Assembly: GCA_965225945.1 (NCBI GenBank)
Contig: CBDDBZ010000037.1
Span: forward strand, 256,001 to 320,000
Reading direction: 5' to 3'
From: Alphaproteobacteria bacterium
GTDB taxonomy: Bacteria > Pseudomonadota > Alphaproteobacteria > GCA-2731375
Length of the DNA stretch: 64,000 nt
Shown piece by piece: positions 1,900 through 54,696 of the stretch. The notes below the pieces were generated by a model. It saw only the letters and a list, made by a program, of their open reading frames with translations. It had not been told where the DNA came from and ran no database searches. Each line of letters starts with the position of its first letter. The stretch's first letter is position 1. Made by a program: the position numbers and the translations under genes.

Positions 1900-2471
1900 C
1901 GCTGTCGTGCGTCGTCGAGCTGAAGGTTGCCGGCATCGCCGCCGAGGCGGCGGAGCAGCACGGTCGCCTGGCCGGCCGGCTCTCGTGGTCGCCGAGCCCG
2001 AGGGCTACTGGGCCGGGACCCTCCCCCACCGGAGGGCCGGAAGGTGGCTCTCCGGGCTCCGGAGCGTGGCCGAGGGCCTGTCCGTGGAGGTGCACCTGAT
2101 CGCGCCGCGCGGCGGCGGCCAGCCCGACCGACTCACGGGCGACCAGCTTTCTGTCCGGCGGGGGCCGTTGGCCGGCTCCATGACCAGACATTCGATGCCG
2201 CGTTGTTCGAGCAACCGCACCAGCCAGAAGCCGTCGTAGCCTGCCTCGTCGCAGAGGACCACCTTTGGCACCTGACCCGAGACGTTGGCCAGGCGGTCCC
2301 GCACCGCATCGAGCTTGGCGATCAGGCCGTCGGCGTCGCCGCCCCTGATTGGATGCAAGCTCGGATTGTCCCGGCCCGGAGACTGGAGCGCCAAAAGCCA
2401 ACTGTTCTTGCCCAGCTCAAGGGCAGCATGGAGAGTTTGTTCGCCGCACGTGGTCGTAGGGGGCGTCATCA
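1900..2471 (-). pseudogene. Degraded IS110-family transposase (different from the 2705 element)
   Basis: HAALELGKNSWLLA...VVLCDEAGYDGFWLVRLLEQRGIECLVMEPA (DEDD domain start), then the frame breaks down. Confidence 0.8.
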
Positions 2472-2704
2472 TAGCATCTCGCTCCTTCTGATAGCGGTTG
2501 AACCAATCGAAGGAGCTTGAAGCCGCATCCCTCGGCCTCATAGCATCTGGGGTATAATCCCCGTGCTGGCGAATCGGTTGGTTAGGGGACTTGTAGACCC
2601 TATGTCCGTTGAGGTTTCGACGCCGGGACCAGGTGTCCGCCTCAGCATGTAGTTTCGAGGGTTGCACGCGTTTGCGTGCCTATCCTCATACATGGGAGAC
2701 GGAC

Positions 2705-5245
2705 ATGACGGACGATATCACCTTTGTTGGCTTGGATGTTTCGAAGGAGACGATTTCGGTCGGGATCGCGCCGGGTGATCCGCGAGAGGCGGTTCATTAT
2801 TTCGGCACCATCGTGTACCGACCGACGGCGCTCTATTCGCTCTGCAAGAAGCTGTCGCGGGACGGCGCGCGTCTTCACTTCTGCTATGAGGCTGGCCCGT
2901 TCGGCTATTCCCTGCATCGCCGGCTTTTGGACTGGGGCCACACCTGCGATGTGGTGGCGCCCTCGCTGATCCCCAAGCGGCCCGGTGACCGGGTCAAGAC
3001 GGACCGGCGGGACGCGCTGAGCCTGGCTTCGTTGTTGCGTGCCGGACAGTTGACCGCGGTCAAGTCCGGATTCTGCTGGGAATTTTCTCCGGGGTTGCCT
3101 CCGTCGAGGCCTGTTCTGGTAGTTCCAGCTGGGCTTGGTATTCCTGATCGAGTTCCTTCCTGACGGCGTCCATCTGGCGCCGCTCGAAGACGGTGACCTT
3201 GACTGCTTTCCATCGCTCGGCGGCGCGGCTCATGGCACCGAACATGAGCTTCAGTACCGCCTTTTCGCCGAAGGCGTTGGGGATGATCTTCAAGCGCCGG
3301 CGCTCCTCCCCGAACAATCTCTCCAGCAGGTTGGTGGTGCGGATCGCCCGGCGGTGATTGACCGGCATGCGCAGGTGCGCGATGCAGGCCTCGAAATCAT
3401 CCAGGAAACAGGCCACCGCCGAGGGCAGCTCGCGCTCCCAGTCACGCACCACGCCCTCGGCCAGATCGCGGGCGATGGCGCGCGAGGGGGCCTGGTAGGC
3501 CGCTTGGGCGCGGGCCTTGAACTCCGGCCAGAGATCCTCGGGCACCTTCGCCGCCAAGTTCCTCATCCGGTGCGCGAGGCAGCGTTGGCGCGCGCTCCTG
3601 GGAAAACAAATCTCGATCGCCTTGATAATGCCAGGCGCGCCGTCGGAGGCGATCAGGAGAGGATCGCCCAGGCCTCGGCTGCGCATGTCCTGGAAGAACG
3701 CGGAGACGGTCTCGTTGTCCTCCTTCGAGCCCGCCATCAGATGCAGGAGAACCTTCTTGCCCTCGAGCGTGAAGCCCCAGGCCGCCAGCACCGGCTCTCG
3801 CCTCTGCCCGGCCCGCAGCCGCTCGGCGATGCCGTCGACGAAGAGGTAGGCGATCTCGAACTCGCTAAGGTCGCGCTTGGCGAAGCCGAGGTAGTCCGCC
3901 CAGAGCCGCTCCCCCATCTCCGAGACCGCCGTGCGCGACAGCAGCAAGCGCCCACTTTCTTCCCTGAAGGCATCTTCGATGTCGCGCACCGAGAGACCGC
4001 GCGCCAGCATCTCCACGGCTAAATCCTCCAGGCCCTCGGAATGACCCTTCAGCTGCGCTCGCAGATCCGAACGGAACGGTTCGTCCGTCCCGGCGACCTG
4101 CGGCGCCGCATACCTGATCCGCCCCTCGGCCGTCTTCAGATGACCTTCGCGCGAACCGTTCCGGTAACCTCGGCCAGGCTCGGAACCGTGCTCGTAATAG
4201 TCCCGGCCCAGGGCGTCGCGCACCTCGGCCTCCAAGCCTTCCTCGATGATTAACCGCGTCGCCAACCGCACCAATTCACTCTTCGCGTCGACCACGCGGG
4301 CGCGCCCTTCGATCAGGTCGTTCAAGGCTTCACGCGTGCGCTCGCTTCCGGGTAGTCTCTTCGTCATGGAGGTGCCTCCTGTGCTGGGCTGGCGCGCAGC
4401 CATGCCCGGGTGGGAATCGACACCTCGAAGGATGCACCTCCTACCAAATTCCCAGCAAGTCTAGGACTTCACCGTTGACCGCGGTCTGGGTGCCCGACGC
4501 GAGCCACGAGGCGGTTCGCGCGCTGGTGCGCCTGCGCCACCTGGCGGCGGGCGACGTGCGCCGGGCCAAGCAGCAGATCCTGGGCTTCTGCCTGATGCAT
4601 GATCGGGTGTATCGGGCGGGTACGACGCATTGGACGAAGACCCACCGGAACTGGCTGGTGGATCAGAAGTTCGAGCACGGCGCTCTGGCGCTGACCTATT
4701 CGGAATTGCTTGGCCGTCTCGAACGGGCGGAAGAGATGCTGGCGCGAGCGCGCCTGGAGTTGCGGGAACACCTTGGCGGCTGGGCCTTGTATCCGGTCAT
4801 GGACGCCCTTCAGGCGTTACGCGGCTTCGATTGGGAGAATGCCGCCATGGTCGCGGCGGAGATCGGCGACTTCCAGCGCTTCCCCACGGCGGGCCATCTG
4901 ATGGCCTACGTCGGCTTGGTGCCGTCGGAATATTCCAGCGGTGATCGACGCAAGCGGGGCAAGATCACCAAGTCGGGCAACGCCATGGTTCGCCGTGTCC
5001 TGGTGGAGGCAGCCTGGACCTATCGTCACCCGGCGCGCCAGTCGAGCCCGATCCGCGCCCGTTCAGCCCATCTGCCGGAGCCGATCCGCGACAAGGCCTG
5101 GCAGGCGCAGATACGATTGTGTCGTCGCATGCGCGATCTGCGCGGGCGCGGCAAACACCAGAACACCGTGCTGACCGCGGTGGCCCGGGAGCTGGCGGGG
5201 CACGTCTGGGCCATCGCCCGCATGGTGCCCCCGCCGATGGCATAA
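2705..5245 (+). pseudogene. IS110 DEDD recombinase split by IS256 insertion
   Basis: GLDVSK, CYEAG, KTDRRDA and EYSSG motifs; the frame LRAGQLTAV|WVPD resumes after the IS256. Confidence 0.92.
3058..4473 (-). mobile_element. IS256-family element type A, copy 1 (transposase 3060-4403)
   Basis: IRs GGTGAAGTCC..GCTGGGAATTT / GGTCAAGTCC..GCTGGGAATTT; 9-bp TSD GTTGACCGC; FVDG, ASDG, QRC and TTNLLER motifs; 1416 bp. Confidence 0.96.
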
Positions 5246-5275
5246 ATCGCCGCGCGCCGAGCGGCGAATACCAAC

Positions 5276-5478
5276 ACGCCCGCTTGCGTGGGCAGCGGCG
5301 GTGGCGGCCACTTGGGGAACTCCCGTTCCTTGGCTATGGGCAGGATTGCATCCGATGCCCGTCTGTAGAGTCAGGACAGCCCCATCGGACATAGGGACAT
5401 GCGGTAGTCGATCCGCGGATAAGAGCTTGATGGACCGTCGATCAAAGCCGTCCCGCCGCTGCCTTCCAAAGCGGGCGT
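5276..5478 (+). ncRNA. Putative IS110 bridge RNA
   Basis: Outer stems 5276-5285/5469-5478 and 5291-5301/5453-5463 enclose two internal loops whose strands match target flanks and element ends (see findings). Confidence 0.72.
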
Positions 5479-5606
5479 CAGATACCCAGCACCCGGTGAC
5501 GAGCCGGGTGAAAGGCCGCGTTCGTGCTTGACAGGGGAGAGGACATAAGAGCCAAGAATCGTCGGTAAGAGCTTTCTAATATATGAGAGGTTCAGAGCCG
5601 CTGACT

Positions 5607-5686
5607 GGCTACTCCGGCACTCCGTCGGCTTCGCCAGACTTCGTGCATGTCTGAGAGCACGCAGCGCAAACTGGCAGCGATCATCC
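5607..5686 (+). pseudogene. 5' stub (40-nt leader + MSESTQRKLAAII) of a class III cyclase/TPR gene
   Basis: RKLAAI N-terminal signature; leader homologous to 56435-56474 and 51584-51623. Confidence 0.75.
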
Positions 5687-5785
5687 TCGACGGTTTGAGA
5701 GAGCTACCGTTTCGCATCAGGCTCCGGATTGCCATCGAGAGCCCGAATGGCTACTCTGATGGCCGGAAACTGCGGAGGCGAGGGC

Positions 5786-6787
5786 ATGGTCGAGACCACG
5801 GTCGGCGTCGATCTGAGCCGAGGCGACGCACCCCCCGCGACACCGATCGTCGAGCCGCCAGTCTTCGTCTGGCCGCCCCGACCGGTCGCAATGTTCAAGT
5901 TCCTGTTCGCCATACCGGGCTACTTCCTGCCCTTCAACATCATCTACATGGGCCTCGCCGTCCTGACCTGGTTCGCCCTCACGCCCGAGCTCTCGCGCAT
6001 GACGACGTTCCAGTGGGACTGGATCGCCATCGTCTACGGCCGGAACCTCGGCCTAACTTTCCTGGTCTTCGGCGGCCTGCACCTTCGTTTCTACATGCTG
6101 AAATCGCAAGGTACCCGCTACATGCTGAACCGGCGGGAGCCGACGGCCGCGCATCGCCGCTTCCTGTTTGGCAACCAGGTCCGCGAGAACGTCTTTTGGA
6201 CCGCGGTGAGCGGCGTCGGCGTCTGGACCGCCTACGAGGTCGTGACGCTCTGGGCTTTCGCCAACGGCTATATCCCGATGCTGAGCTGGGAGGCGCATCC
6301 GATTTACTTCGTGCTGCTGTTCTGCGCCATTCCAATAATCCGCGACGCCTACTCTTATTTCGTGCATCGCCTGCTGCACTACCGCTTCCTCTACAAGTCG
6401 GTGCACGCGCTGCACCACAAGAACGTCGACATCGGTCCCTGGTCGGGCATGTCGATGCACCCGGTCGAGCACGTCCTCTACTTTGGCGGTGTGCTACCGC
6501 ACTGGATCCTGCTGTCCCATCCGCTGCATGCGATCTTCCACGTACAGCAGGCCGGCCTGGCGCCGGCGCTGGGCCACTTGGGCTTCCACAGGCTGCTGAC
6601 GAAGGGCGAGAACGAGTACTCGATCGGTCAGCGCTATTTCCACTATCTGCATCACCGTTATTTCGAGTGTAACTACGGCGGTGACGGCACGGTGCCACTC
6701 GACAAGTGGTTCGGCAGCTGGCACGACGGCACGCCGGAAAGCCACGAAATCATGCGCGCCCGGCGCAAGAAGGCCCACGGCATCTGA
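5786..6787 (+). CDS. Sterol desaturase / fatty acid hydroxylase family protein
   Basis: His boxes HRLLH, HALHH and HYLHH; hydrophobic segments; GGAGG RBS. Confidence 0.9.
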   Translation: MVETTVGVDLSRGDAPPATPIVEPPVFVWPPRPVAMFKFLFAIPGYFLPFNIIYMGLAVLTWFALTPELSRMTTFQWDWIAIVYGRNLGLTFLVFGGLHLRFYMLKSQGTRYMLNRREPTAAHRRFLFGNQVRENVFWTAVSGVGVWTAYEVVTLWAFANGYIPMLSWEAHPIYFVLLFCAIPIIRDAYSYFVHRLLHYRFLYKSVHALHHKNVDIGPWSGMSMHPVEHVLYFGGVLPHWILLSHPLHAIFHVQQAGLAPALGHLGFHRLLTKGENEYSIGQRYFHYLHHRYFECNYGGDGTVPLDKWFGSWHDGTPESHEIMRARRKKAHGI

Positions 6788-7036
6788 GTCCACCCACGCG
6801 GGCCCGGCATCGCCGAACTGCAAACGCCGAGCAATGTCGGATCACCACGCGTTGCGCCGGCAGGTAGCGATCCGCCCTCTGCCGCCTGCCAGCCTATCGC
6901 CCGCTGACGGGGCTCCTGCGGCGATTGAGCGCAACCTAAACGCACCCTTCAACCCTATCGAGCGTTCGAAGCCGAGGCATTCCGCGGCTTTCCCATCGAT
7001 TGCATGTCGCGCGGCCAGAACTCGATCGCCGAATTA

Positions 7037-8211
7037 TACCAACTGACGCTGACGGAGACTCACATTTGGGATTTCCCTGACGGTTGATTTCTGACTCAAT
7101 TCTGGTGATTCGGGATTGAGGAGGAGATTGACGATGGGCGCGGCGATCAAGCTTCGGGAGGACTATGACGCGGACGAACTTCGTCGACTTGCGCGGCTTT
7201 CGAAAGACGCGGATCAGAGCCGTCGTCTGTTGTCGCTGGCGGTGATCCATGAGGGCGGTCGTCGGCGGGATGCGGCGCGGACCGGCGGCGTCGGCCTTCA
7301 GGTGATCCGGGACTGGGTGTTGCGCTTCAATGCGGCGGGCCCGGATGGCCTGATCGATCGCAAGGCCCCCGGGCCGACGTCGAAACTCGACGATGCACGA
7401 CGCAAGGCACTGGCGGCGCGCGTCGATGCCGGACCGGATCCGAGAACGGACGGCGTGGTGCGCTGGCGTCTGAAGGATCTGGCGCGCTGGATCCAGGACG
7501 AGTTCCAGATCTCGCTCGGTGAGAGGACGGTGAGCCGGGAATTGAAGACGATGGGCTCCACCAAGCTGACGGCGCGCCCGCGCCACCATGCCCAGGAGGC
7601 GGGCGTCATCGACGACTTCAAAAAAAATTCCCCGAGCTGGTCTCGCAAGTCCGCGAAAGCCTGCCCGACGGCGCGGACATAGAAATCTGGTGGCAGGACG
7701 AGGCCCGCGTCGGCCAGAAGAACAAGATCACCCGGCGCTGGGCCCGACGCGGCAGCCGTCCCCGCGCGCCGCATGACCAGCGCACCAAGTCGGCCTACAT
7801 CTTCGGCGCCATCTGTCCCGAACGTGGAACCGGCGCAGCCCTCGTGCTCCCGCGCTGCAACACCGAGGCCATGCAGCGCCATCTGGAGGAAATCTCCTCC
7901 CAGGTCCACACCAGCGCTCATGCCCTCCTGCTTCTCGATCAGGCCGGGTGGCACATCACCGACGATCTGACCATTCCAGACAACATCACCCTCGTCCCGA
8001 TACCGCCACGCTCACCGGAACTCAATCCGGTCGAAAACATCTGGCAATACATGCGAGACAACTGGCTCTCCAACATCGTATTCCAATCCGAGGAAGAGAT
8101 CGTCGACTGCTGCTGCGAAGCCTGGAACAAACTCATCAATAAACCGGGCAAAATCAAATCCATCGGCAAGCGTCAATGGGCCCATGGGTTTTGATCAATG
8201 TCGGTTGGTAT
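7037..8211 (+). mobile_element. IS630-family element type A (orfA 7134-7682, orfB to 8194, -1 frameshift)
   Basis: IRs TACCAACTGAC / GTCGGTTGGTA with TA flanks; slippery A-run near 7620-7628; WQDEARVG, LDQAGWH and SPELNPVE motifs. Confidence 0.93.
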
Positions 8212-8541
8212 TAGTTGCTCAGACGGGCGCGCAAAAACAGTGGGGGCAGAGCGATCCCGAAGGATTAGATTGTCAAGGTCGAGTTCTTAGCGCAGATTCT
8301 GCTCGGCGACCGGCCGCGGCGGCCACCGACGCCGCTCGACTGACTTCGAGGCCATGCCTACCTCTTCCCGCACACTCCGGCCATCCGTAAAGGCAACGCT
8401 ATTGATGCTTGGGGCGATGGCTTTCCGCGCCAAGAAAGTTTGTGTCTGAATTCATCGAGATCCCCGGCAAACCGTTACCATGTTGCCATCGCGCTGACAG
8501 AATCTCGGTGCGACACATAGATGATGGTGCGCTATCCCAGG

Positions 8542-20740: not shown

Positions 20741-20888
20741 AGCGCTGGTGCCGAAAGGGAGAAAAAAATGGGTGAACCATCCGTCGCCCCTCCGCCGGGA
20801 CCGGGGAGGAGGGAGGAGAGGGAGAAAATCCCCGGTCCTTGGATGCAAGCGGCGAGGTCAGGGAGGAGGGACCGCGCCCCATCCGGGC

Positions 20889-22304
20889 GGTGAAGTCCTA
20901 GACTTGCTGGGAATTTGGTAGGAGGTGCATCCTTCGAGGTGTCGATTCCCACCCGGGCATGGCTGCGCGCCAGCCCAGCACAGGAGGCACCTCCATGACG
21001 AAGAGACTACCCGGAAGCGAGCGCACGCGTGAAGCCTTGAACGACCTGATCGAAGGGCGCGCCCGCGTGGTCGACGCGAAGAGTGAATTGGTGCGGTTGG
21101 CGACGCGGTTGATCATCGAGGAAGGCTTGGAGGCCGAGGTGCGCGACGCCCTGGGCCGGGACTATTACGAGCACGGTTCCGAGCCTGGCCGAGGTTACCG
21201 GAACGGTTCGCGCGAAGGTCATCTGAAGACGGCCGAGGGGCGGATCAGGTATGCGGCGCCGCAGGTCGCCGGGACGGACGAACCGTTCCGTTCGGATCTG
21301 CGAGCGCAGCTGAAGGGTCATTCCGAGGGCCTGGAGGATTTAGCCGTGGAGATGCTGGCGCGCGGTCTCTCGGTGCGCGACATCGAAGATGCCTTCAGGG
21401 AAGAAAGTGGGCGCTTGCTGCTGTCGCGCACGGCGGTCTCGGAGATGGGGGAGCGGCTCTGGGCGGACTACCTCGGCTTCGCCAAGCGCGACCTTAGCGA
21501 GTTCGAGATCGCCTACCTCTTCGTCGACGGCATCGCCGAGCGGCTGCGGGCCGGGCAGAGGCGAGAGCCGGTGCTGGCGGCCTGGGGCTTCACGCTCGAG
21601 GGCAAGAAGGTTCTCCTGCATCTGATGGCGGGCTCGAAGGAGGACAACGAGACCGTCTCCGCGTTCTTCCAGGACATGCGCAGCCGAGGCCTGGGCGATC
21701 CTCTCCTGATCGCCTCCGACGGCGCGCCTGGCATTATCAAGGCGATCGAGATTTGTTTTCCCAGGAGCGCGCGCCAACGCTGCCTCGCGCACCGGATGAG
21801 GAACTTGGCGGCGAAGGTGCCCGAGGATCTCTGGCCGGAGTTCAAGGCCCGCGCCCAAGCGGCCTACCAGGCCCCCTCGCGCGCCATCGCCCGCGATCTG
21901 GCCGAGGGCGTGGTGCGTGACTGGGAGCGCGAGCTGCCCTCGGCGGTGGCCTGTTTCCTGGATGATTTCGAGGCCTGCATCGCGCACCTGCGCATGCCGG
22001 TCAATCACCGCCGGGCGATCCGCACCACCAACCTGCTGGAGAGATTGTTCGGGGAGGAGCGCCGGCGCTTGAAGATCATCCCCAACGCCTTCGGCGAAAA
22101 GGCGGTACTGAAGCTCATGTTCGGTGCCATGAGCCGCGCCGCCGAGCGATGGAAAGCAGTCAAGGTCACCGTCTTCGAGCGGCGCCAGATGGACGCCGTC
22201 AGGAAGGAACTCGATCAGGAATACCAAGCCCAGCTGGAACTACCAGAACAGGCCTCGACGGAGGCAACCCCGGAGAAAATTCCCAGCAGAATCCGGACTT
22301 GACC
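20889..22304 (+). mobile_element. IS256 type A, copy 2 (transposase 20959-22302)
   Basis: Near-identical to copy 1; 9-bp TSD CATCCGGGC. Confidence 0.96.
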
Positions 22305-24533: not shown

Positions 24534-25334
24534 ATGGATGAGAACGAAACCGAGCCAGCGGACGACGACCTCCCTCCGAGCCTGATCCCCACGCAAGTGA
24601 TCGCGCCGGCGAGCAAGGCCAGCCTGCTGTCGCGACTGCGGACCTATCTCATCGCCGGCATCATCGTGACCGCGCCGATCGCGATCACGGTCTATCTGAC
24701 CGTGATCATCGTGCAGTTCGTCGACGCCCAGATCGTGCCGCTGATCCCGCCGATCTACAATCCCGAGACCTACCTGCCTTTCTCCATTCCCGGCCTCGGC
24801 ATCCTGGTGGTGCTGATCGTATTGATATTCATCGGCTTCGTCGCGGCGAACTTCTTCGGCCGCTACCTGATCCGCACGGGCGAGCGCATCATCGATCGCA
24901 TGCCGGTGGTGCGCAGCGTCTACAACGCGCTGAAACAGATCGCCGAAACCGTGGCGCGGCAGTCGTCGAACGCCTTCCGCCAGGTCGTGCTGGTCGAATA
25001 TCCGAGAAAGGGCGTGTGGGCGCTCGCCTTCCTCACCAGCGAGGCGAAGGGCGAGGTCCGGCGCCGAGCGGAGCGGGATTTGATCAGCGTCTTCCTGCCG
25101 ACGACGCCCAACCCCACGTCCGGCTTTCTGCTCCTGGTGCCGCGCGAGGATCTGATCATGCTGGAGATGACGGTCGAGGAGGCGGCGAAGATGATCATCT
25201 CGGCCGGCGTGGTCATTCCGCCCGATCGGGGCGCGGCGCCCATGGTGGCGCCGATCCAGCTCTCCTCGCACTTCGCCGAGCGCCAGCCCGAGGTCTCGGC
25301 GGACTCGGAGCAACGGCGCGACGGTGCCGAATAG
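24534..25334 (+). CDS. DUF502 domain membrane protein
   Basis: VLVEYPRKG and FLPTTPNPTSGF motifs; usual neighbour of recG in Alphaproteobacteria. Confidence 0.92.
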   Translation: MDENETEPADDDLPPSLIPTQVIAPASKASLLSRLRTYLIAGIIVTAPIAITVYLTVIIVQFVDAQIVPLIPPIYNPETYLPFSIPGLGILVVLIVLIFIGFVAANFFGRYLIRTGERIIDRMPVVRSVYNALKQIAETVARQSSNAFRQVVLVEYPRKGVWALAFLTSEAKGEVRRRAERDLISVFLPTTPNPTSGFLLLVPREDLIMLEMTVEEAAKMIISAGVVIPPDRGAAPMVAPIQLSSHFAERQPEVSADSEQRRDGAE

Positions 25335-25630
25335 CGCATGATCCGCTCATGCGATTCGGAGAAAAGGAAAAGGGGTCATTCTACTTTTTAGTCCGTTCTG
25401 CCGAATAAAGTACAATGACCCCTTTTTCTTTTCAGCTCTCCTCGCACTTCGCCGAGCGCCAGCCCGAGGTCTCGGCGGATTCGGAAAAAGGGGTCATTCT
25501 GCTTTTTGGTCCGTTCCGCCGAATAAAGTACAATGACCCTTTTCTCCTTTTCTCCGAGCGGCGGCCCGAGGTCTCGGCGGACTCGGAGCAACGGTGCGAC
25601 GGTGCCGAATAGCGCATGATCCGCTCATGC
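25257..25630. repeat. Two ~70-bp palindromic elements interleaved with three partial copies of the DUF502 3' end
   Basis: AAAAGGGGTCATT...AATGACCC(C)TTTT at 25361-25433 and 25484-25552; duplicated blocks 25257-25352, 25433-25485 and 25554-25630. Confidence 0.9.
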
Positions 25631-30595: not shown

Positions 30596-32901
30596 GGTGA
30601 AGTCCTAGACTTGCTGGGAATTTGGTAGGAGGTGCATCCTTCGAGGTGTCGATTCCCACCCGGGCATGGCTGCGCGCCAGCCCAGCACAGGAGGCACCTC
30701 CATGACGAAGAGACTACCCGGAAGCGAGCGCACGCGTGAAGCCTTGAACGACCTGATCGAAGGGCGCGCCCGCGTGGTCGACGCGAAGAGTGAATTGGTG
30801 CGGTTGGCGACGCGGTTGATCATCGAGGAAGGCTTGGAGGCCGAGGTGCGCGACGCCCTGGGCCGGGACTATTACGAGCACGGTTCCGAGCCTGGCCGAG
30901 GTTACCGGAACGGTTCGCGCGAAGGTCATCTGAAGACGGCCGAGGGGCGGATCAGGTATGCGGCGCCGCAGGTCGCCGGGACGGACGAACCGTTCCGTTC
31001 GGATCTGCGAGCGCAGCTGAAGGGTCATTCCGAGGGCCTGGAGGATTTAGCCGTGGAGATGCTGGCGCGCGGTCTCTCGGTGCGCGACATCGAAGATGCC
31101 TTCAGGGAAGAAAGTGGGCGCTTGCTGCTGTCGCGCACGGCGGTCTCGGAGATGGGGGAGCGGCTCTGGGCGGACTACCTCGGCTTCGCCAAGCGCGACC
31201 TTAGCGAGTTCGAGATCGCCTACCTCTTCGTCGACGGCATCGCCGAGCGGCTGCGGGCCGGGCAGAGGCGAGAGCCGGTGCTGGCGGCCTGGGGCTTCAC
31301 GCTCGAGGGCAAGAAGGTTCTCCTGCATCTGATGGCGGGCTCGAAGGAGGACAACGAGACCGTCTCCGCGTTCTTCCAGGACATGCGCAGCCGAGGCCTG
31401 GGCGATCCTCTCCTGATCGCCTCCGACGGCGCGCCTGGCATTATCAAGGCGATCGAGATTTGTTTTCCCAGGAGCGCGCGCCAACGCTGCCTCGCGCACC
31501 GGATGAGGAACTTGGCGGCGAAGGTGCCCGAGGATCTCTGGCCGGAGTTCAAGGCCCGCGCCCAAGCGGCCTACCAGGCCCCCTCGCGCGCCATCGCCCG
31601 CGATCTGGCCGAGGGCGTGGTGCGTGACTGGGAGCGCGAGCTGCCCTCGGCGGTGGCCTGTTTCCTGGATGATTTCGAGGCCTGCATCGCGCACCTGCGC
31701 ATGCCGGTCAATCACCGCCGGGCGATCCGCACCACCAACCTGCTGGAGAGATTGTTCGGGGAGGAGCGCCGGCGCTTGAAGATCATCCCCAACGCCTTCG
31801 GCGAAAAGCCGCCCGATGTACGTGAAGCTCCATGGTTGATCGATGAGCTTGTTCCAGGCTTCGCAGCAGGAGGTGATGATCTGCTCGTCGGATTGGAGAC
31901 CAAGATGGACAGCCAGCATGAACTGCCAGATGTTTTCGGTCGGATTGAGCTCCGGCGAGCGTGGTGGCAGGGGCAGGAGGGTAACGTTGGCGGGGATCTT
32001 CAGCTTGTCCGTGATGTGCCAACCCGCCTGATCGAGGAGCAGGAGGGCATGCGCGCGCGCGCCTACCCGGGAGGAGATCTCCTCCAGATGCGCTGCATCG
32101 CAGTGGGGGAGCACGAGGGCGGCGCCGACGCCGCGTTCGGGACAGATGGCGCCGAAGATATAGGCTGATTTGGTGCGCTGGTCATGCGGTGCGCGGGGCC
32201 GGGTTCCGCGCCGCGCCCAGCGCCGAGTGATCTTGTTCTTCTGGCCGACACGGGCTTCGTCCTGCCACCAGATTTCTATCTCGGTGCCGGCGGGCAGGCG
32301 CCGGCCCGGCGGGGAATTTTTTTTAAAATCCTCGATGGCCCTCCTCCTGGGCATGGTGGCGCGGACGCGCCGTCATCCGTGAAGCCCATCGCCTTCAATT
32401 CCCGGACCGTGGTCTCGTCGAGCGAGAGGAACATATCCCGGATCCAGCCCGCCAGATCCTTCAGCCGCCAGCGCACCACGCCGTCGACCGCCGGGTTCGG
32501 CCCCGCATCGACGCGTGCCCCCAGCGCCTGGCGGTGCATCGTCGAGCTTCGCCACCGCACCCGCCTTGCGATCGAGCAACACCCAATCTCGGATCACCTG
32601 AATGGCCGGTCCGTGCCGCATCCGTCCGCCGCCCACCGTCATTGTTCGGGGAGGAGCGCCGGCGCTTGAAGATCATCCCCAACGCCTTCGGCGAAAAGGC
32701 GGTACTGAAGCTCATGTTCGGTGCCATGAGCCGCGCCGCCGAGCGATGGAAAGCAGTCAAGGTCACCGTCTTCGAGCGGCGCCAGATGGACGCCGTCAGG
32801 AAGGAACTCGATCAGGAATACCAAGCCCAGCTGGAACTACCAGAACAGGCCTCGACGGAGGCAACCCCGGAGAAAATTCCCAGCAGAATCCGGACTTGAC
32901 C
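30596..32901 (+). mobile_element. IS256 type A, copy 3, containing an 830-bp IS630-like insert
   Basis: Both IRs present; 8-bp TSD TCGGCTCG; insert at 31809-32640. Confidence 0.92.
31809..32640 (-). pseudogene. Indel-riddled internal fragment of IS630 type A
   Basis: Colinear with ~60300-61225 but with many short deletions; no IS630 ends. Confidence 0.85.
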
Positions 32902-33563
32902 TCGGCTCGAAGCACCGAGGCGACGTTTTGCCGTTCTATAGGGCACGAACACGATATCGTCCTGGTCCCTGCCGGATCCCGACTGTCCCTTGGGTGAAAG
33001 GAGACCGATCACCTTCACCGGCGTGTTGAGAATACGCACCTCGCGACCGATGGGATCGGCACCGGCGAACAGGCGTTCGGCGACCGTCGCGCCGATCAAC
33101 GCGACCTTGCGGGCACCGGTCTCGTCGCGCCGGGAAAAGCCACGACCCGAGGCGAGCGGCCAGTCCCGGATGAAGAAATAGCCCGCCGTCGTTCCGTTGA
33201 TGCGGCTGGGCCAGTTCCGGTTGCCGTGGATCACGCGGGCGCGCAGTTGGAGCGAGGGCGCGGCCGCGATCACCGCGGGGAGGGTCGCGGCCACGACCTC
33301 GGCGTCCGCGACCGTCAGGGTCACCGGCCGCGCGCGTTCGCCCCCTGGCCCGAGCGCACCGCGTTCCGCGCCGGGCAGGATCATCAAGACGTTGGCGCCG
33401 AGCGATCGGATCTGTTCCGCGATTCGTGCCTGGGCGCCGGCGCCGACCGAGAGCATCGTGATCAGCGCGCCGACGCCGATGACGATGCTCAGCACGGCCA
33501 GGAGACTTCTGAGCCGGTTCGCGCGAATCGAGCGGACGGCATCGTGCAGGTTCTGCCAAGTCC

Positions 33564-41611: not shown

Positions 41612-43047
41612 TGATGCAGACGCGGCCTTCGACTTCTTCATCCAGGCCTACGGCCTGGCTTGTGTAGCGTGAGGTCTGGAAATTTGGCTTCGCCCCGCGC
41701 CGGGGTATACCCCGGCGCGGGGCGATCCGTCATTTTGGTTATCCATGAAAGCGTCCAAACAAACATGGAGAACCAGTATGCGGAAAGACCAGGATAGCGC
41801 TGTCGAGGCTTTGGTGGAACAATTGATCGAAGGCGGTAGCGAGAACATGGCGACGGTCTTCGCCGGCCTTTTCAATCTCGCCATGCGGATCGAGCGGGAG
41901 AGGTTCTTGGGCGCCGGCCACTATGAGCGCACGCCCGAGCGGCGGGGATACGCCAACGGCACCAGACCCAAGAAGATCGACACCCCGGCCGGTACGGTGA
42001 GGCTCGAGGTTCCCAAGACCGCCGGTCATGAGGCGCCTTTTTACCCCCAAGCCCTGGAGCGCGGACGGCGCTCCTGCCGCGCTGTCATGCTGGCCGTGGC
42101 GGAGATGTATATCAAAGGCGTCTCCACCCGTGACGCCGAGGCGGTGATGCGCGAGTTCGGCCTGGAGAGCCTGTCGTCGAGCCAGGTCAGCCGCGCCGCC
42201 AAGCTCTTGGATGGGGAGCTGGATGGCTGGCGCAACCGGCCGCTGGGCGAGATCCGCTACCTGCTCCTCGACGCGCGCTATGAGAAAGTCCGAGAGGGTG
42301 GCGTGGTGCGCGACGCCGCCGTGCTCTCGGTGATCGGCATCGGCCCCGACCAGCGCCGCCGGGTGCTCGGTGTTTCCTGTGCGCTCTCCGAGGCCGAAGT
42401 GCACTGGCGCGCCTTCCTGGAGACCCTGGTTGCCCGTGGCATGCGCGGTGTCGCCTATATCGTTTCCGATGATCATCCAGGCCTCGGCGCCGCGCGCAAG
42501 GCCGTCCTCGGCGGCGCCGTCTGGCAGCGCTGTCAGTACCATCTGGCTCAAAACGCCATCCATCACGCCCCCAACCTCGCCATCCGAAAGGCCATCGGCA
42601 AGGAGCTGCGCCGGGTCTGGAATGCCGCCGACGGCAAGGCCGCCGAGGCCGAGCTGGGCCACCTGGTGGCGGCCTACCGCGATAGCGCCCCCAAGCTCGC
42701 CGATTGGCTGGAGGCGGCGATCCCCGAGGGCCTCGCCGTCTTCGCCCTGCCCGAGCGCCACCAAAAGCGCATGCGAACCTCGAACCCCATGGAGCGATCC
42801 ATCCAGCAGGAGATCAAGCGCCGCACCGTAAAGGTCAGGGTCTTTCCCAACGAGGCCTCGCTCGAACGCCTGGTCACCGTCATCCTCGTCGAAATCGACG
42901 AGAAATGGGAAACCACCGAAAAACCCTACATCACTTGGAAAGCAGAGGATGACTGATCAACGGCGTTCCGAATTTCCACACATCAGGTTGCTCAATCTAC
43001 GGCCTGAGTATGACAAGGCGGTCGCCTGCCTGGCCAAGGACCGAGAT
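41612..43047 (+). pseudogene. Short remnant of a third IS256-like transposase split by IS256 type B
   Basis: DADAAFDFFIQAYG | YDKAVACLAKDRD on either side of the insertion. Confidence 0.6.
41657..42997 (+). mobile_element. IS256-family element type B, copy 1 (transposase 41778-42956)
   Basis: 8-bp TSD TACGGCCT; LLDARYEK, VSDDH, WQRC and TSNPMER motifs; 34-bp perfect palindrome at 41691-41724. Confidence 0.95.
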
Positions 43048-48462: not shown

Positions 48463-49665
48463 GAGGCCTCGTTGGGAAAGACCCTGACCTTTACGGTGCG
48501 GCGCTTGATCTCCTGCTGGATGGATCGCTCCATGGGGTTCGAGGTTCGCATGCGCTTTTGGTGGCGCTCGGGCAGGGCGAAGACGGCGAGGCCCTCGGGG
48601 ATCGCCGTCTCCAGCCAATCGGCGAGCTTGGGGGCGCTGTCGCGGTAGGCCGCCACCAGATGGCCCAGCTCGGCCTCGGCGGCCTTGCCGTCGGCGGCGT
48701 TCCAGACCCGGCGCAGCTCCTTGCCGATGGCCTTTCGGATGGCGAGGTTGGGGGCGTGATGGATGGCGTTTTGAGCCAGATGGTACTGACAGCGCTGCCA
48801 GACGGCGCCGCCGAGGACGGCCTTGCGCGCGGCGCCGAGGCCTGGATGATCATCGGAAACGATATAGGCGACACCGCGCATGCCACGGGCAACCAGGGTC
48901 TCCAGGAAGGCGCGCCAGTGCACTTCGGCCTCGGAGAGCGCACAGGAAACACCGAGCACCCGGCGGCGCTGGTCGGGGCCGATGCCGATCACCGAGAGCA
49001 CGGCGGCGTCGCGCACCACGCCACCCTCTCGGACTTTCTCATAGCGCGCGTCGAGGAGCAGGTAGCGGATCTCGCCCAGCGGCCGGTTGCGCCAGGCATC
49101 CAGCTCCCCATCCAAGAGCTTGGCGGCGCGGCTGACCTGGCTCGACGACAGGCTCTCCAGGCCGAACTCGCGCATCACCGCCTCGGCGTCACGGGTGGAG
49201 ACGCCTTTGATATACATCTCCGCCACGGCCAGCATGACAGCGCGGCAGGAGCGCCGTCCGCGCTCCAGGGCTTGGGGGTAAAAAGGCGCCTCATGACCGG
49301 CGGTCTTGGGAACCTCGAGCCTCACCGTACCGGCCGGGGTGTCGATCTTCTTGGGTCTGGTGCCGTTGGCGTATCCCCGCCGCTCGGGCGTGCGCTCATA
49401 GTGGCCGGCGCCCAAGAACCTCTCCCGCTCGATCCGCATGGCGAGATTGAAAAGGCCGGCGAAGACCGTCGCCATGTTCTCGCTACCGCCTTCGATCAAT
49501 TGTTCCACCAAAGCCTCGACAGCGCTATCCTGGTCTTTCCGCATACTGGTTCTCCATGTTTGTTTGGACGCTTTCATGGATAACCAAAATGACGGATCGC
49601 CCCGCGCCGGGGTATACCCCGGCGCGGGGCGAAGCCAAATTTCCAGACCTCACGCTACACAAGCC
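48463..49665 (-). mobile_element. IS256 type B, copy 2, 3'-truncated and fused to IS21
   Basis: Matches 41657-42860; breaks after FPNEAS. Confidence 0.93.
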
Positions 49666-51680: not shown

Positions 51681-52895
51681 CTCTTATGTCCTCTCCCCTG
51701 TCAAGCACGAACGCGGCCTTTCACCCGGCTCGTCACCGGGTGCTGGGTATCTGACGCCCGCTTTGGAAGGCAGCGGCGGGACGGCTTTGATCGACGGTCC
51801 ATCAAGCTCTTATCCGCGGATCGACTACCGCATGTCCCTATGTCCGATGGGGCTGTCCTGACTCTACAGACGGGCATCGGATGCAATCCTGCCCATAGCC
51901 AAGGAACGGGAGTTCCCCAAGTGGCCGCCACCGCCGCTGCCCACGCAAGCGGGCGTGTTGGTATTCGCCGCTCGGCGCGCGGCGATTTATGCCATCGGCG
52001 GGGGCACCATGCGGGCGATGGCCCAGACGTGCCCCGCCAGCTCCCGGGCCACCGCGGTCAGCACGGTGTTCTGGTGTTTGCCGCGCCCGCGCAGATCGCG
52101 CATGCGACGACACAATCGTATCTGCGCCTGCCAGGCCTTGTCGCGGATCGGCTCCGGCAGATGGGCTGAACGGGCGCGGATCGGGCTCGACTGGCGCGCC
52201 GGGTGACGATAGGTCCAGGCTGCCTCCACCAGGACACGGCGAACCATGGCGTTGCCCGACTTGGTGATCTTGCCCCGCTTGCGTCGATCACCGCTGGAAT
52301 ATTCCGACGGCACCAAGCCGACGTAGGCCATCAGATGGCCCGCCGTGGGGAAGCGCTGGAAGTCGCCGATCTCCGCCGCGACCATGGCGGCATTCTCCCA
52401 ATCGAAGCCGCGTAACGCCTGAAGGGCGTCCATGACCGGATACAAGGCCCAGCCGCCAAGGTGTTCCCGCAACTCCAGGCGCGCTCGCGCCAGCATCTCT
52501 TCCGCCCGTTCGAGACGGCCAAGCAATTCCGAATAGGTCAGCGCCAGAGCGCCGTGCTCGAACTTCTGATCCACCAGCCAGTTCCGGTGGGTCTTCGTCC
52601 AATGCGTCGTACCCGCCCGATACACCCGATCATGCATCAGGCAGAAGCCCAGGATCTGCTGCTTGGCCCGGCGCACGTCGCCCGCCGCCAGGTGGCGCAG
52701 GCGCACCAGCGCGCGAACCGCCTCGTGGCTCGCGTCGGGCACCCAGACCGCGGTCAACTGTCCGGCACGCAACAACGAAGCCAGGCTCAGCGCGTCCCGC
52801 CGGTCCGTCTTGACCCGGTCACCGGGCCGCTTGGGGATCAGCGAGGGCGCCACCACATCGCAGGTGTGGCCCCAGTCCAAAAGCCGGCGATGCAG
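51681..52895 (-). mobile_element. IS110-family element, copy 2, 5'-truncated (partial recombinase to 51987; bridge-RNA region ~51754-51956)
   Basis: Reverse complement of copy 1 without the IS256; CC core at 51679-51680. Confidence 0.93.
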
Positions 52896-54696
52896 GGAGC
52901 GCGCGTTCAACCGGCGCTTCGTGCAGATGTGTGGCCACTACCTGGTCGAACCGACAGCATGCACGCCGGGAGCGGGATGGGAGAAGGGGCAGGTCGAGAA
53001 CCAGGTCGGGATCATCCGCGGTCGGTTCTTCACCCCGCGGCTGCGCTTCAAGACCTACGACGAGCTCAACGCCTGGCTCTTGGACCAGTGCGTCGCCTAC
53101 GCCCGGCGTCATCCCCACCCGGTGTTCAAGGACAGGACTGTCTGGCAGGTGTTCGAGGACGAGCGTCCGTCCCTGGTCGGCTATCGCGGGCCGTTCGACG
53201 GCTTCCACGCGGTCCCGGCGTCGGTGTCGAAGACCTGCCTGGTGCGCTTCGACAGCAACAAGTACAGCGTGGCGGCGCGCGCCGTCGGCCGTCCGGTCGA
53301 GGTCCATGCCTACGCCGATCGCATCGTCATCCGCCAGGACGGCGAGATCGTCGCCGAGCATGCCCGGCGCTTCGGCCGCGACCAGACCGTCTATGACCCG
53401 TGGCACTACGTGCCCGTGCTGGCGAGGAAGCCCGGTGCGCTTCGTAACGGCGCGCCGTTCAAGGACTGGGCGCTGCCCGGCGCCCTGGGTCGCGTGCGCG
53501 TCCGGCTCGCCGGCCACGACGACGGCGACAGGCAGATGGTCGAGATCCTCACCGCCGTGCTGGCGGATGGGCTGGCGGCGGTGGAGGCCGCCTGTGCCGA
53601 GGCGCTCGCTGGCGGCGTGTGCAGCGCCGACGTCGTGCTCAACATCCTCAATCGTCGGCGCCAGCCGTCCGAGACGGCGCCGATCCCGACGCCCGCGAAC
53701 CTGCGTCTTCGCTTTGAGCCGGTGGCCGATTGCACCCGCTACGACCGCTTGAGGGGGGTCGGCCATGGAGCGCCATGAGGTCCTGGAGATGATGGCCGCA
53801 CTCAAGCTCGCCGGCATGCGCGACGCGTTCGACGAGGTGCTCGCCGACGGCCTCAAGCGCCAGCATCCGATGCAGCGAATCATCGGCGAGCTGTTGAAGG
53901 CCGAGATCGCCGACAAGCAGGCGCGATCCATCAAGTACCAGATGAGTGGCGCCAAGCTGCCGCTGGCCAAGGAGCTGGCCGACTTCGACTTCACCGACAC
54001 CCCGGTCAACGAGCCGCTGGTCCGCGAGTTGGCGGTCGGCGGCTTCCTGGCCAACCAGCGCAACGCCGTGCTGATCGGCGGCACCGGCACCGGCAAGAGC
54101 CATCTCGCCGTCGCCATCGCGCGGGCCTGCATCCGCGATGGCGCCCGGGGCCGCTTCTTCAACGTCGTCGACCTGGTCAACCGGCTCGAGGCCGAAGCCC
54201 GCGCCGGCCGCCAGGGCCGGCTCGCCGATCAGCTGGCCCGGCGCGACCTCGTCATCCTCGACGAGCTCGGCTACCTGCCCTTCGCCCAAACCGGAGGCCA
54301 GCTGCTGTTCCACCTCGTCAGCCGGCTCTACGAGCGCACCTCGATCATCGTCACCACCAACCTGACCTTCGGCGAATGGCCGTCCGTCTTCGGCGACGCC
54401 AAGATGACCACCGCGCTCCTCGATCGTCTGACGCACCACTGCGAGATCATCGAGACCGGAAACGACTCCTGGCGCTTCAAGAATCGGTCCTAAAGGCAAC
54501 CGATCCACCTGCCGCCCGGTCGCCCAGGTGGGCCCACAGGAACCTCCCACGCGCGGTCCGCCGCCAGCCGCGTGGTGGGCGCGTCGGCCCGCGCGCGGGC
54601 CCCTCCTATGGACTACCTGTACGACCTCCGCCGTGCATCCCCAAAGGGGTCAACATTGCACGCCGATAGGGGGTCAATGTTCAACGCCGATTGACA
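52896..54696 (+). mobile_element. IS21-family element, copy 2; istA 5'-truncated (to 53778)
   Basis: Reverse complement of 46085-47885; ends ATTGACA. Confidence 0.93.
53765..54493 (+). CDS. istB: IS21 helper ATPase
   Basis: Same protein as 46288-47016. Confidence 0.96.

What the first reader, a model, noticed from the sequence alone, without database searches (positions are those of the whole stretch)
5276..5478. IS110 bridge RNA whose target and donor guides can be read directly
Seen: two long outer stems enclose two internal loops, each with an inner hairpin (GGGCA/TGCCC 5338-5360; GCGG/CCGC 5401-5416). In loop 1, CTTGG (5329-5333) is antisense to CC+AAG right of both insertions, and TGTAGA (5364-5369) equals the left flank at 2592-2597. 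In loop 2, CGGACATAGGG (5386-5396) is an 11/11 antisense match to core plus left end CCCTATGTCCG, and ATAAGAGC (5419-5426) equals the right end plus core. Known: IS110 recombinases use a bispecific RNA with target- and donor-binding loops. Inference: donor ATAAGAG-CC-CTATGTCCG and target TGTAGA-CC-AAG define a candidate programmable recombinase with a CC core; an intact enzyme can be rebuilt by removing the IS256.
Basis: partly seen in the sequence, partly recalled or inferred. Interest (0 to 1): 0.75.

Follow-up and report, generated by a model that had tools for sequence, protein, structure and literature searches.

The report
IS1111-type bridge RNA, AG core

Summary
Window 5276-5478 lies in the 304-nt non-coding end downstream of an IS110-family transposase gene, so the element is IS1111-type.

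A covariance model built from 12 relatives found a full-length RNA on the transposase strand in 52 of 53 loci. The consensus has 93.3% of cells paired and 30 of 39 pairs with compensatory change, exceeded by 0 of 500 shuffles.

Loop 1 guides covary with the flanks of each element (0 of 2000 permutations). Loop 2 guides track the element ends. The bridge-RNA reading is therefore supported.

The core and the target and donor strings are one base out of register. About 30 uninterrupted copies of an ~80-nt genomic repeat read ..TAG|CCAAG.., whereas occupied copies read ..TAG|ACCCTATGTCC. The core is therefore AG, the target is xxT-AG-CCAAG and the donor junction is ATAAG-AG-ACCCTATGTCCG.

Two intact copies of the element exist elsewhere in the genome, so nothing needs rebuilding.

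This is a new member of a known kind and is of moderate interest.

The parts
2592..2594 (+). Left target half (TGT) of window copy 1. It lies at the right edge of a diverged copy of an ~80-nt genomic repeat (about 2537-2596).
   Evidence: Flanks; repeat family.
2595..2596 (+). Crossover core AG, left junction.
   Evidence: Empty sites read TAG|CC and occupied sites read TAG|ACCC.
2597..2704 (+). Left end of the IS (starts ACCCTATGTCCG), 108 nt and non-coding. It holds the subterminal inverted repeat TATGTCC at 2601-2607.
2705..3057 (+). N-terminal part of the IS110-family transposase gene (DEDD/RuvC-like domain). It is cut by an IS256-type insertion.
   Evidence: Pfam PF01548, E = 8e-07, 29.4 bits against a cutoff of 29. 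The intact paralogue P0001 scores 235.7 bits on NF033542.
3058..4473 (-). IS256-family (Mutator-type) insertion sequence that interrupts the transposase gene. It is flanked by a 9-bp direct repeat, GTTGACCGC, at 3049-3057 and 4474-4482.
   Evidence: Pfam PF00872, E = 6.1e-61. Identical copy at 20888-22304. The direct repeat was read.
4474..5245 (+). C-terminal part of the transposase gene (Transposase_20 domain with the GLVPSEYSSG serine motif). The stop codon is at 5243-5245.
   Evidence: Pfam PF02371, E = 5.3e-22; motif position.
5276..5478 (+). Bridge (seek) RNA.
- A two-part outer helix: 5276-5285 with 5469-5478, and about 5291-5303 with 5451-5463.
- This helix carries a three-way junction with a target arm (5314-5383) and a donor arm (5384-5442).
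   Evidence: Fold; covariance model and alignment; pair counts; coordinates.
5325..5335 (+). Target loop, 5' strand: GUUCCUUGG-CU.
- It is antisense to AG-CCAAGGAAC, that is, the core plus the right target half.
   Evidence: Positional homology with 36 relatives whose guide ends in CU and pairs with AG plus their own right flank.
5338..5360 (+). Inner hairpin of the target loop (GGGCA...TGCCC). Relatives have a hairpin of variable length at the same place.
5364..5369 (+). Target loop, 3' strand: UGU-AG-A.
- It has the same sense as the left target half plus the core.
- The final A equals the first base of the IS left end, a handshake-like match to the non-cognate partner.
   Evidence: L051 has G at this position and an LE that starts with G.
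5386..5398 (+). Donor loop, 5' strand: CGGACAUAGGG-A-C.
- It is antisense to G-(A)-CCCTATGTCCG, the second core base plus the left end. That is 12 of 13 positions, with 11 contiguous.
- Its first two bases can also close helix 4 (5384-5387 with 5439-5442).
   Evidence: (0 of 3000 shuffles reach 11 nt).
5401..5416 (+). Inner hairpin of the donor loop (GCGG/CCGC). It is nearly invariant across the 52 homologues.
   Evidence: helix 5: 99.5% of cells paired.
5419..5426 (+). Donor loop, 3' strand: AUAAG-AG-C.
- It has the same sense as the right end plus the core.
- The final C equals the first base of the right target half, again handshake-like.
   Evidence: The 7-mer changes together with the right end in three subfamilies: ATAAGAG, ATCAGAG and ATATCAG.
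5528..5549 (+). Right end of the IS. It holds a conserved TTGACA (5528-5533) and the subterminal inverted repeat GGACATA (5541-5547), and ends at ..ATAAG.
5550..5551 (+). Crossover core AG, right junction.
5552..5560 (+). Right target half, CCAAGAATC. Five contiguous bases are complementary to the guide beyond the core.
51681..52898 (-). Second window copy of the IS.
- It is cut at its 5' side by an IS21-type element (52892-54696).
- It keeps an identical RNA gene at 51754-51956 (minus strand), the core AG at 51682-51681 and the right flank CCAAGAG.
   Evidence: IstB identified.

Best explanation
Window 5276-5478 encodes the bridge (seek) RNA of an IS1111-group member of the IS110 family. The RNA is read from the same strand as the transposase gene, in the long right-hand non-coding end.

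**Architecture.** It folds into a long outer helix bearing two arms.
- The target arm has an internal loop. Its 5' strand (GUUCCUUGG-CU, 5325-5335) pairs with the top strand of the target over the core AG and the bases to its right. Its 3' strand (UGU-AG, 5364-5368) pairs with the bottom strand over the bases to the left of the core and the core itself.
- The donor arm does the same for the joined ends of the excised circle. Its 5' strand is CGGACAUAGGGAC, which pairs with the left end. Its 3' strand is AUAAG-AG, which matches the right end plus the core.
- One further base after each sense guide (A5369, C5426) matches the other DNA partner. This is what IS621's handshake guides do.

**Recombination.** The DEDD/serine recombinase would exchange strands at the AG core. 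The 1530-bp element (counting one core copy) would be inserted into xxT-AG-CCAAG. In this genome that sequence is the right edge of an ~80-nt repeat present in at least 35 copies.

**Shown here**
- Conserved structure with covariation.
- Guide-to-flank and guide-to-end covariation.
- The AG boundary, from empty sites.
- Family membership of the protein.

**Inferred, not shown**
- That the RNA is made, processed and bound by the enzyme.
- That a circle forms.
- The strand-exchange chemistry.
For: **Protein**
- The two gene fragments hit PF01548 and PF02371.
- The intact paralogue P0001 (371 aa) scores 235.7 bits on NF033542, 'IS110 family RNA-guided transposase', cutoff 140.
- It matches the solved bridge recombinases ISCro4 (E = 4.5e-13) and IS621 (E = 1.5e-12).
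- D11, E62, D100, D103 and S270 align to identical residues of ISCro4.

**Structure**
- The RNAalifold consensus of 12 sequences has 39 pairs, 17 with compensatory change.
- The model found a full-length match on the transposase strand in 61 of 72 sources and in 52 of 53 at E <= 1e-9.
- On those 52, 93.3% of cells are paired, against 36-49% when partners are slid.
- 30 of 39 pairs change on both sides, and 0 of 500 shuffles reach any of the five measures.
- G-U pairs are frequent, and minus-strand scores are far lower (for example L005: 239 against 33 bits). Both point to an RNA of this strand.

**Target guides**
- In 46 distinct guide/flank pairs, the 5' strand pairs contiguously with the right flank for a mean of 3.65 nt beyond AG. 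Permuted pairings give 0.66 +/- 0.15, and 0 of 2000 reach the observed value.
- 29 of 46 pairs have 4 nt or more, and 20 of 46 have 5 nt or more.
- The 3' strand matches the left flank for a mean of 2.54 nt, against 1.17 +/- 0.13 permuted (0 of 2000), n = 41.

**Donor guides**
- The 7-mer of the 3' strand recurs as the right end in 47 of 52 loci. It exists in three co-varying versions.
- In this element the 5' strand has an 11-nt perfect antisense match to the left end (0 of 3000 shuffles).
- There is one compensatory change against L051.

**Core**
- 30 of 35 copies of the target repeat are uninterrupted and read |CC. In 26 of those, AG comes immediately before. None reads AGACC.
- 4 of the 35 are occupied and read AG|ACCCTATG.
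- In L028, removing the element at AG restores a perfect 16-bp palindrome.

**Other**
- Copies are 99-100% identical at four places in the genome.
- The literature places the RNA in the right end of IS1111 elements. Durrant 2024 (PMC11208160, passages read) says so. Siddiquee 2024 (PMC11187229, sections 6, 8, 9, 13 read) agrees and also gives the top-strand match 5' of the bottom-strand match.
Against: - Ten of the 46 guide/flank pairs (the closest relatives, L005-L013 and L060) score 0 in the test. Their guide ends in UU rather than CU. By eye they pair with only 2-5 nt of flank.
- Five loci with enough downstream sequence had no RNA match at E <= 0.01: L022, L032, L078, L079 and L081.
- In relatives the 5' strand of the donor loop pairs with only 3-5 nt at the aligned place. 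A conserved GGnCAUGCGG motif also resembles the left end. Donor recognition on that side is therefore less clear than in this element.
- In this genome the natural targets match only 1-3 nt to the left and 3-5 nt to the right of the core.
- No sigma-70-like promoter was found inside the element.
- Expression evidence is thin. Four short contigs in two metatranscriptome runs of one study, depth 3-5, cover 5010-5485 in pieces. DNA carry-over is not excluded.
- The alignment used for pair counts was fitted to the model, which favours the structure (one search states this).
Confidence: 0.87

Rival explanations
1. One reading: the same RNA, but with a CC core, target TGTAGA-CC-AAG and donor ATAAGAG-CC-CTATGTCCG.
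For: - CC occurs at both junctions of the window copies.
- All four strings match the integrated junctions literally.
Against: - Uninterrupted paralogous sites read GATAG|CCAAG and never GATAGACCAAG: 30 uninterrupted of 35 sites examined.
- In the beta-proteobacterial relatives the bases right after ..ATATCAG vary from locus to locus, so CC cannot be a core there.
- The guide's conserved CU pairs with AG.
Confidence: 0.03
2. Only the target arm acts as a guide, as a short seekRNA of about 70-100 nt processed from the longer transcript. Under this view the ends are recognised by the protein through the subterminal inverted repeats. The 'donor loop' matches would then be sequence shared with those repeats rather than working guides.
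For: - Siddiquee 2024 found a predominant RNA of 82-96 nt carrying the two target matches, alongside a longer form (sections 8 and 9).
- In relatives the donor-loop 5' strand pairs poorly with the left end at the aligned place.
- The motif GGnCAUGCGG is conserved whatever the left end reads.
Against: - The donor-loop 3' strand changes together with the right end in three subfamilies, in 47 of 52 loci.
- The match to the left end here is 11 of 11, with 0 of 3000 shuffles reaching it.
- The whole 200-nt structure, donor arm included, is conserved with covariation.
- RNA-library contigs span 5278-5462 and 5303-5485. That covers both arms, though this is weak evidence.
Confidence: 0.08
3. A structured 3' untranslated region, terminator or DNA-level hairpin set with no guide function. 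Under this view the matches to ends and flanks are by-products of the inverted repeats.
For: - The region is G+C rich and folds stably.
- In this sequence alone the short target matches are not significant.
Against: - Guide and flank covary across 46 and 41 pairs, with 0 of 2000 permutations reaching the observed values.
- G-U pairs and the strand asymmetry of model scores point to an RNA.
- No terminator-like site was found on the plus strand.
Confidence: 0.02

Closest known systems
seekRNA of IS1111-family elements ISEc11, ISPa11, ISKpn4 and ISPst6 (Siddiquee et al. 2024, PMC11187229)
   Same: - The RNA is encoded in the long non-coding region downstream of tnp.
- The match to the target's top strand lies 5' of the match to the bottom strand, and the two overlap at the insertion point.
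- There are subterminal inverted repeats.
- The transposase has a GL-P----SG motif.
- No internal promoter is found.
- Targets are repeated, foldable sequences (REP, attC).
   Different: - The transposase here has 371 aa, against the 330-350 quoted for the family (section 6).
- The inverted repeat is only 7 bp.
- The target is a different repeat.
- I could not compare sequences or cores, because the figures and supplements are not held.
- Whether a short processed form exists here is unknown.
IS621 and ISCro4 bridge RNA-recombinase systems (Durrant et al. 2024, PMC11208160; Hiraizumi et al. 2024, PMC11208158)
   Same: - A bispecific RNA with a target-binding and a donor-binding loop, each with one guide per DNA strand around a 2-nt core.
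- Single bases next to the core match the non-cognate DNA, like handshake guides.
- The recombinase is homologous (E about 1e-13) with the D-E-D-D and Ser residues conserved.
- Read on the strand opposite to tnp, the core AG is CT, the IS621 core. The guide order then equals that of IS621. This last point is my inference from the passages.
   Different: - The RNA lies at the other end of the element, downstream of tnp.
- The guide order is reversed relative to tnp.
- The architecture is a three-way junction on a 22-bp outer helix.
- The subterminal repeats are longer.
- Protein identity is low and confined to the two catalytic domains.
REP-targeting IS110-family elements of Pseudomonas putida, ISPpu9 and ISPpu10 (PMC12288879; bioRxiv 10.64898/2026.03.19.712850). 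I saw only the search listings and abstracts.
   Same: Insertion into one position of a repeated intergenic element present in many copies per genome.
   Different: - The host and the repeat are different.
- I did not read these papers beyond the listed abstracts.

Membership tests
IS110 family, IS1111 group (insertion sequence) | Transposase with an N-terminal DEDD (RuvC-like) domain and a C-terminal Transposase_20 domain | tested here: met
   PF01548 and PF02371 on the two fragments. NF033542 scores 235.7 bits against a cutoff of 140 on the intact paralogue.
IS110 family, IS1111 group (insertion sequence) | Catalytic D, E, D, D and the serine of the G(L)-P----SG motif | tested here: met
   D11, E62, D100, D103 and S270-G271 align to identical residues of ISCro4. 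The catalytic role is taken from IS621 D11/E60/D102/D105/S241 (passage).
IS110 family, IS1111 group (insertion sequence) | The longer non-coding region lies downstream of tnp | tested here: met
   304 nt downstream (5246-5549) against 108 nt upstream (2597-2704). The criterion comes from Siddiquee section 6 and Durrant.
IS110 family, IS1111 group (insertion sequence) | Subterminal inverted repeats of 7-17 bp | tested here: met
   TATGTCC at 2601-2607 and GGACATA at 5541-5547 (7 bp, the lower limit). Relatives have 8-11 bp.
IS110 family, IS1111 group (insertion sequence) | Site-specific insertion without a long target duplication; a short core is present at both junctions | tested here: met
   AG at both junctions. 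There are six left junctions and four right junctions, all at xxT-AG / CCA... Empty sites are shown.
IS110 family, IS1111 group (insertion sequence) | Circular intermediate with abutted ends | not testable with these tools
   No junction reads were available. The contigs laid show no joints.
Bridge RNA / seekRNA | Conserved secondary structure in the non-coding end, supported by covariation | tested here: met
   93.3% of cells paired, 30 of 39 pairs with compensatory change, 0 of 500 shuffles.
Bridge RNA / seekRNA | Target loop with two guides, one per strand, that change with the flanks of each element | tested here: met
   right 3.65 against 0.66 nt, left 2.54 against 1.17 nt, 0 of 2000 permutations each. 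Ten of 46 pairs on the right score 0.
Bridge RNA / seekRNA | Donor loop guide matching the right end | tested here: met
   Three co-varying 7-mers; present again at the right end in 47 of 52 loci.
Bridge RNA / seekRNA | Donor loop guide complementary to the left end | tested here: inconclusive
   Met in this element: 11 of 11 contiguous, 12 of 13 overall, 0 of 3000 shuffles. In most relatives there are only 3-5 nt at the aligned place.
Bridge RNA / seekRNA | The RNA is transcribed | tested here: inconclusive
   Contigs of two RNA libraries from one study cover 5010-5167, 5048-5275, 5278-5462 and 5303-5485 at depth 3-5. DNA carry-over is not excluded.
Bridge RNA / seekRNA | The RNA binds the recombinase, is required for recombination and can be reprogrammed | not testable with these tools
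   Needs bench work.
Rfam families | Match to a curated RNA family | tested here: not met
   No match at gathering score in the window. Only chance-level hits with E > 1 in 5200-5600.

The most novel reading that the evidence does not exclude
Two linked readings go beyond the ordinary one.

**A two-state donor arm.**
- The nearly invariant GGnCAUGCGG motif forms the 5' half of the GCGG/CCGC hairpin.
- The same motif is complementary to the subterminal repeat of the left end: 9 of 10 in the L014, L061 and L051 lineages and 8 of 10 here.
- The hairpin might therefore open to read the left end.

**Footprints at right ends.**
- Short tandem duplications of the right end are seen in two unrelated genomes. 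One is 14 nt in the C29 copy here and the other is 25 nt in L057.
- In each, the first right end-AG is followed by the first one or two bases of the left end.
- These could be footprints of RNA-guided recombination at half-matching pseudo-sites.
Probability: 0.12. Interest if true: 0.55.

Novelty: new member of a known kind. Interest (0 to 1): 0.35.

Why it matters
Bridge and seek RNAs are a recently found way to programme DNA insertion, excision and inversion with a single RNA.

This element adds a well-resolved IS1111-type subfamily. It has 52 aligned members spread over several phyla according to their record titles. For this subfamily the structure, the four guides, the AG core and the natural targets can be read from sequence alone. 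The right-hand target guide covaries over up to 7 contiguous flank bases plus the core.

That makes the intact paralogue a candidate for a reprogramming test. It also shows how a guide code read from integrated junctions can be one base out of register, because handshake-like bases mimic flank or core.

It does not change what is known about the mechanism.

Tried and rejected
**Rfam.** No family matched at gathering score in the whole window. In 5200-5600 there were only chance-level hits. The target repeat gave one chance-level hit, Magnesium-II at E = 0.33, so I could not name it.

**First attempt at left-end guides.** I looked for exact antisense matches of 9 nt or more between the downstream region and the upstream region of each relative. 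Apart from this element's own guide, this mostly recovered the subterminal inverted repeats, so I moved to a structural alignment.

**Cores considered and dropped.** I first read the relatives with a CC core, then with a CG core for the L014 group. I dropped both when the beta-proteobacterial group and the empty sites showed AG.

**Promoter scan.** No sigma-70-like site was found in the intact copy. This says little for an organism whose promoters may differ.

**Junction promoter.**
- By eye in the output, relatives would place the conserved TTGACA 17 nt before CATCAT across the circle junction.
- In this element the spacing is 3 nt longer and I saw no -10-like hexamer.
- I ran no systematic count.

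**Plasmid collection.** The best matches are 68-72% identical and cover the transposase gene only. None of 202 records covers 80% or more of the query, so no named close relative was found.

**RNA libraries.**
- The parts of the stretch without cover (4475-5009 and 5486-5600 in X1 and X2) prove nothing.
- X6 and X7 hold only a 95-99% relative of a conserved part of the gene.

**Closed or unseen material.** Figures and supplements of the two key papers are not held or are closed. Durrant's Extended Data Fig. 10c and Supplementary Table 5, and Siddiquee's target logos, may already show cores and guides of ISfinder relatives of this element. I make no claim that this subfamily is absent from print. 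My two literature searches were general.

**Rows dropped.**
- Before: same-genome duplicates L015-L021, L066, L076, L082 and own copies L002, L003.
- Before: a further 19 sources. These were duplicates, sources with no match, and the two weak or truncated matches L070 and L075.
- In one search: identical guide/flank pairs were counted once, and loci whose end could not be located were left out (6 of 52 on the right, 11 of 52 on the left).

Full report
**What is at the coordinates.** I read window 2400-8400.

An IS110-family transposase gene starts at 2705.
- It is interrupted by an IS256-family element at 3058-4473. That element hits Pfam PF00872 at E = 6.1e-61, has an identical copy at 20888-22304, and is flanked by the 9-bp direct repeat GTTGACCGC.
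- The gene resumes and ends at 5245.
- The two fragments hit PF01548 (E = 8e-07) and PF02371 (E = 5.3e-22).

The finding lies in the non-coding stretch after the stop codon. A second copy sits on the minus strand at 51681-52898. It is cut at its 5' side by an IS21-type element.

The RNA region folds at -101.2 kcal/mol with z = -3.97.

**Other copies in the genome.**
- The 308-nt downstream region occurs four times at 99-100% identity.
- BLAST of the two halves of the element against the laid genome shows two uninterrupted copies, at C37:331462-332992 and on C29, plus three further left-end fragments on C34, C33 and C19.
- The intact gene gives a 371-aa protein, P0001.
- P0001 scores 235.7 bits on NCBIfam NF033542, 'IS110 family RNA-guided transposase'.
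- It matches the solved bridge recombinases ISCro4 and IS621 at E about 1e-13, with the D, E, D, D and Ser positions conserved.
- So nothing needs to be rebuilt.

**Is it a conserved RNA?** A scan of one genome per species returned 80 loci encoding relatives of 42-56% identity.
- The downstream regions of the closest ones align with this one.
- RNAalifold on 12 of them gives 39 pairs, 17 with compensatory change.
- A covariance model built on that alignment found a full-length match on the transposase strand in 61 of 72 sources.
- Of the 11 sources without a match, six have too little sequence after the gene. Five have enough but no match: L022, L032, L078, L079 and L081.
- On a non-redundant set, 52 of 53 sources matched at E <= 1e-9.
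- On these 52 sequences, 93.3% of cells form pairs, against 36-49% when partners are slid by 1-3 columns.
- 30 of 39 pairs show changes on both sides, and 0 of 500 shuffles reach any measure. The alignment was fitted to the model, which favours it.
- The 22-pair outer helix changes on both sides at every pair.
- G-U pairs are common, and scores on the opposite strand are far lower. This points to an RNA of the transposase strand rather than a DNA structure.
- No Rfam family matches.

**Which loop reads what.** In the 52-sequence alignment the 5' strand of loop 1 is hypervariable, while both strands of loop 2 are constant within subfamilies.

The 3' strand of loop 2 carries ATAAGAG, ATCAGAG or ATATCAG. 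The same 7-mer ends the element in the same loci, in 47 of 52.

**The core is AG.**
- In the beta-proteobacterial relatives the left junction reads xCT-AG-ACATCATG.. and the right junction reads ..ATATC-AG-NNNNNN. The N bases differ from locus to locus.
- There the 5' strand of loop 1 is 5'-(antisense of N)-CU-3'. For example, L036 has GAGACUC-CU against AG|GAGTCT.
- Over 46 distinct pairs, the contiguous match beyond AG averages 3.65 nt, against 0.66 +/- 0.15 for permuted flanks (0 of 2000).
- The 3' strand matches the left flank for 2.54 nt, against 1.17 +/- 0.13 permuted (0 of 2000; n = 41).
- Ten pairs score zero. They are all from the closest relatives, whose guide ends in UU instead of CU. 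By eye they pair with only 2-5 nt.

In this genome the question is settled directly. The left flank belongs to an ~80-nt repeat. Of 35 copies found, 30 are uninterrupted and read ..|CC.., 26 of them with AG just before. None reads AGACC. Four are occupied and read AG|ACCCTATGTCC.
- The empty site is therefore ..GAT-AG-CCAAG.. .
- The A after TAG is the first base of the element.
- In L028, removing the element at AG restores a perfect 16-bp palindrome.

**Re-reading this element.**
- Target loop 5' strand: GUUCCUUGG-CU (5325-5335) is antisense to AG-CCAAGGAAC. The four right flanks are CCAAGAAT, CCAAGAGT, CCAATAGT and CCAGAAAC.
- Target loop 3' strand: UGU-AG (5364-5368). The six left flanks end TGT, CGT (twice) and GAT (three times).
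- Donor loop 3' strand: AUAAG-AG (5419-5425).
- Donor loop 5' strand: CGGACAUAGGG-A-C (5386-5398) pairs with G-(A)-CCCTATGTCCG.
A5369 equals the first base of the left end. C5426 equals the first base of the right target half.
- Each therefore matches the non-cognate DNA. This is the property of the handshake guides described for IS621 (passages).
- L051, whose left end starts with G, has G at the corresponding place.
- I infer a handshake role; I did not test it.
- Read on the opposite strand, AG is CT, the IS621 core, and the guide order becomes that of IS621. This agrees with the reversed order reported for IS1111 elements (abstract and section 9 of PMC11187229).

**Weak points.**
- In this sequence alone, only the left-end match is beyond chance.
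- Donor recognition of the left end is short in most relatives. A conserved GGnCAUGCGG motif, half of it inside the invariant hairpin, also resembles the left end.
- No internal promoter was found. This agrees with what Siddiquee et al. report for ISEc11 (section 8), but it leaves open how the RNA is made.
- Two metatranscriptome runs of one study hold short contigs at 5048-5275 and 5278-5462 (X1) and at 5010-5167 and 5303-5485 (X2), at depth 3-5. This is compatible with a transcript over the RNA but is not proof.

**Comparison and verdict.** Bridge RNAs were predicted in the right end of 93% of ISfinder IS1111 elements (Durrant 2024, passage). seekRNAs of four IS1111 members were shown at the bench (Siddiquee 2024).
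- This element meets the tested defining features of both the insertion-sequence group and the RNA.
- It is a new member of a known kind.

Noticed in passing
window about 2537-2596; genome G000, 35 places listed: An ~80-nt repeat with consensus ..ATGTCGGCTATCGGGGGTAnAGTCCCCGTCGGGCCGGGGTGGCCGATTCGGTnATTnnTAG|CCAA.. occurs at least 35 times in the genome and is the natural landing site of the IS. It has two hairpin-like parts and matches no Rfam family. Several copies are followed by other repeated sequences.
   Followed up: partly
G000:C29 about 111300-111333 (L004); L057 about 1900-1950: Short tandem duplications of the right end of the IS occur in two unrelated genomes: 14 nt here and 25 nt in L057. 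In each, the first right end-AG is followed by the first one or two bases of the left end (A, AC).
   Followed up: partly
window 5528-5533 and the right ends of relatives (output): TTGACA is conserved 15-18 nt before the end of the element in all subfamilies. In relatives the circle junction would give TTGACA-17 nt-CATCAT. In this element the spacing is 3 nt longer and I saw no -10-like hexamer. This was read by eye and not counted.
   Followed up: no
window 3058-4473, 20888-22304, 30596-31811, 32641-32905: There are several copies and fragments of one IS256-family element, 100% identical to each other. One of them sits inside the IS110-family transposase gene with a 9-bp target duplication.
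   Followed up: partly
window 46085-47889 and 52892-54696: Two identical 1805-nt pieces of an IS21-type element (IstB at 53765-54490) lie in inverted orientation. One of them truncates the second IS110-family copy.
   Followed up: partly
window 7026-8200; relatives at 60085-61227 and 31808-32536: An IS630-like element has helix-turn-helix domains (7116-7679) and a DDE_3 domain (7844-8191) in different frames, with a run of eight A at about 7620. Copies that are 78-89% alike lie elsewhere in the window.
   Followed up: no
window 41657-42860 and 48462-49665: A 1204-nt perfect inverted repeat whose arms lie 5.6 kb apart. I did not examine it.
   Followed up: no
window 25257-25630: A cluster of 60-81-nt direct repeats, 77-95% alike, spaced 102-278 nt apart. 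I did not examine it.
   Followed up: no
window 5729-6784: The gene just right of the insertion encodes a fatty acid hydroxylase family protein (PF04116). The IS sits about 180 nt upstream of it.
   Followed up: no
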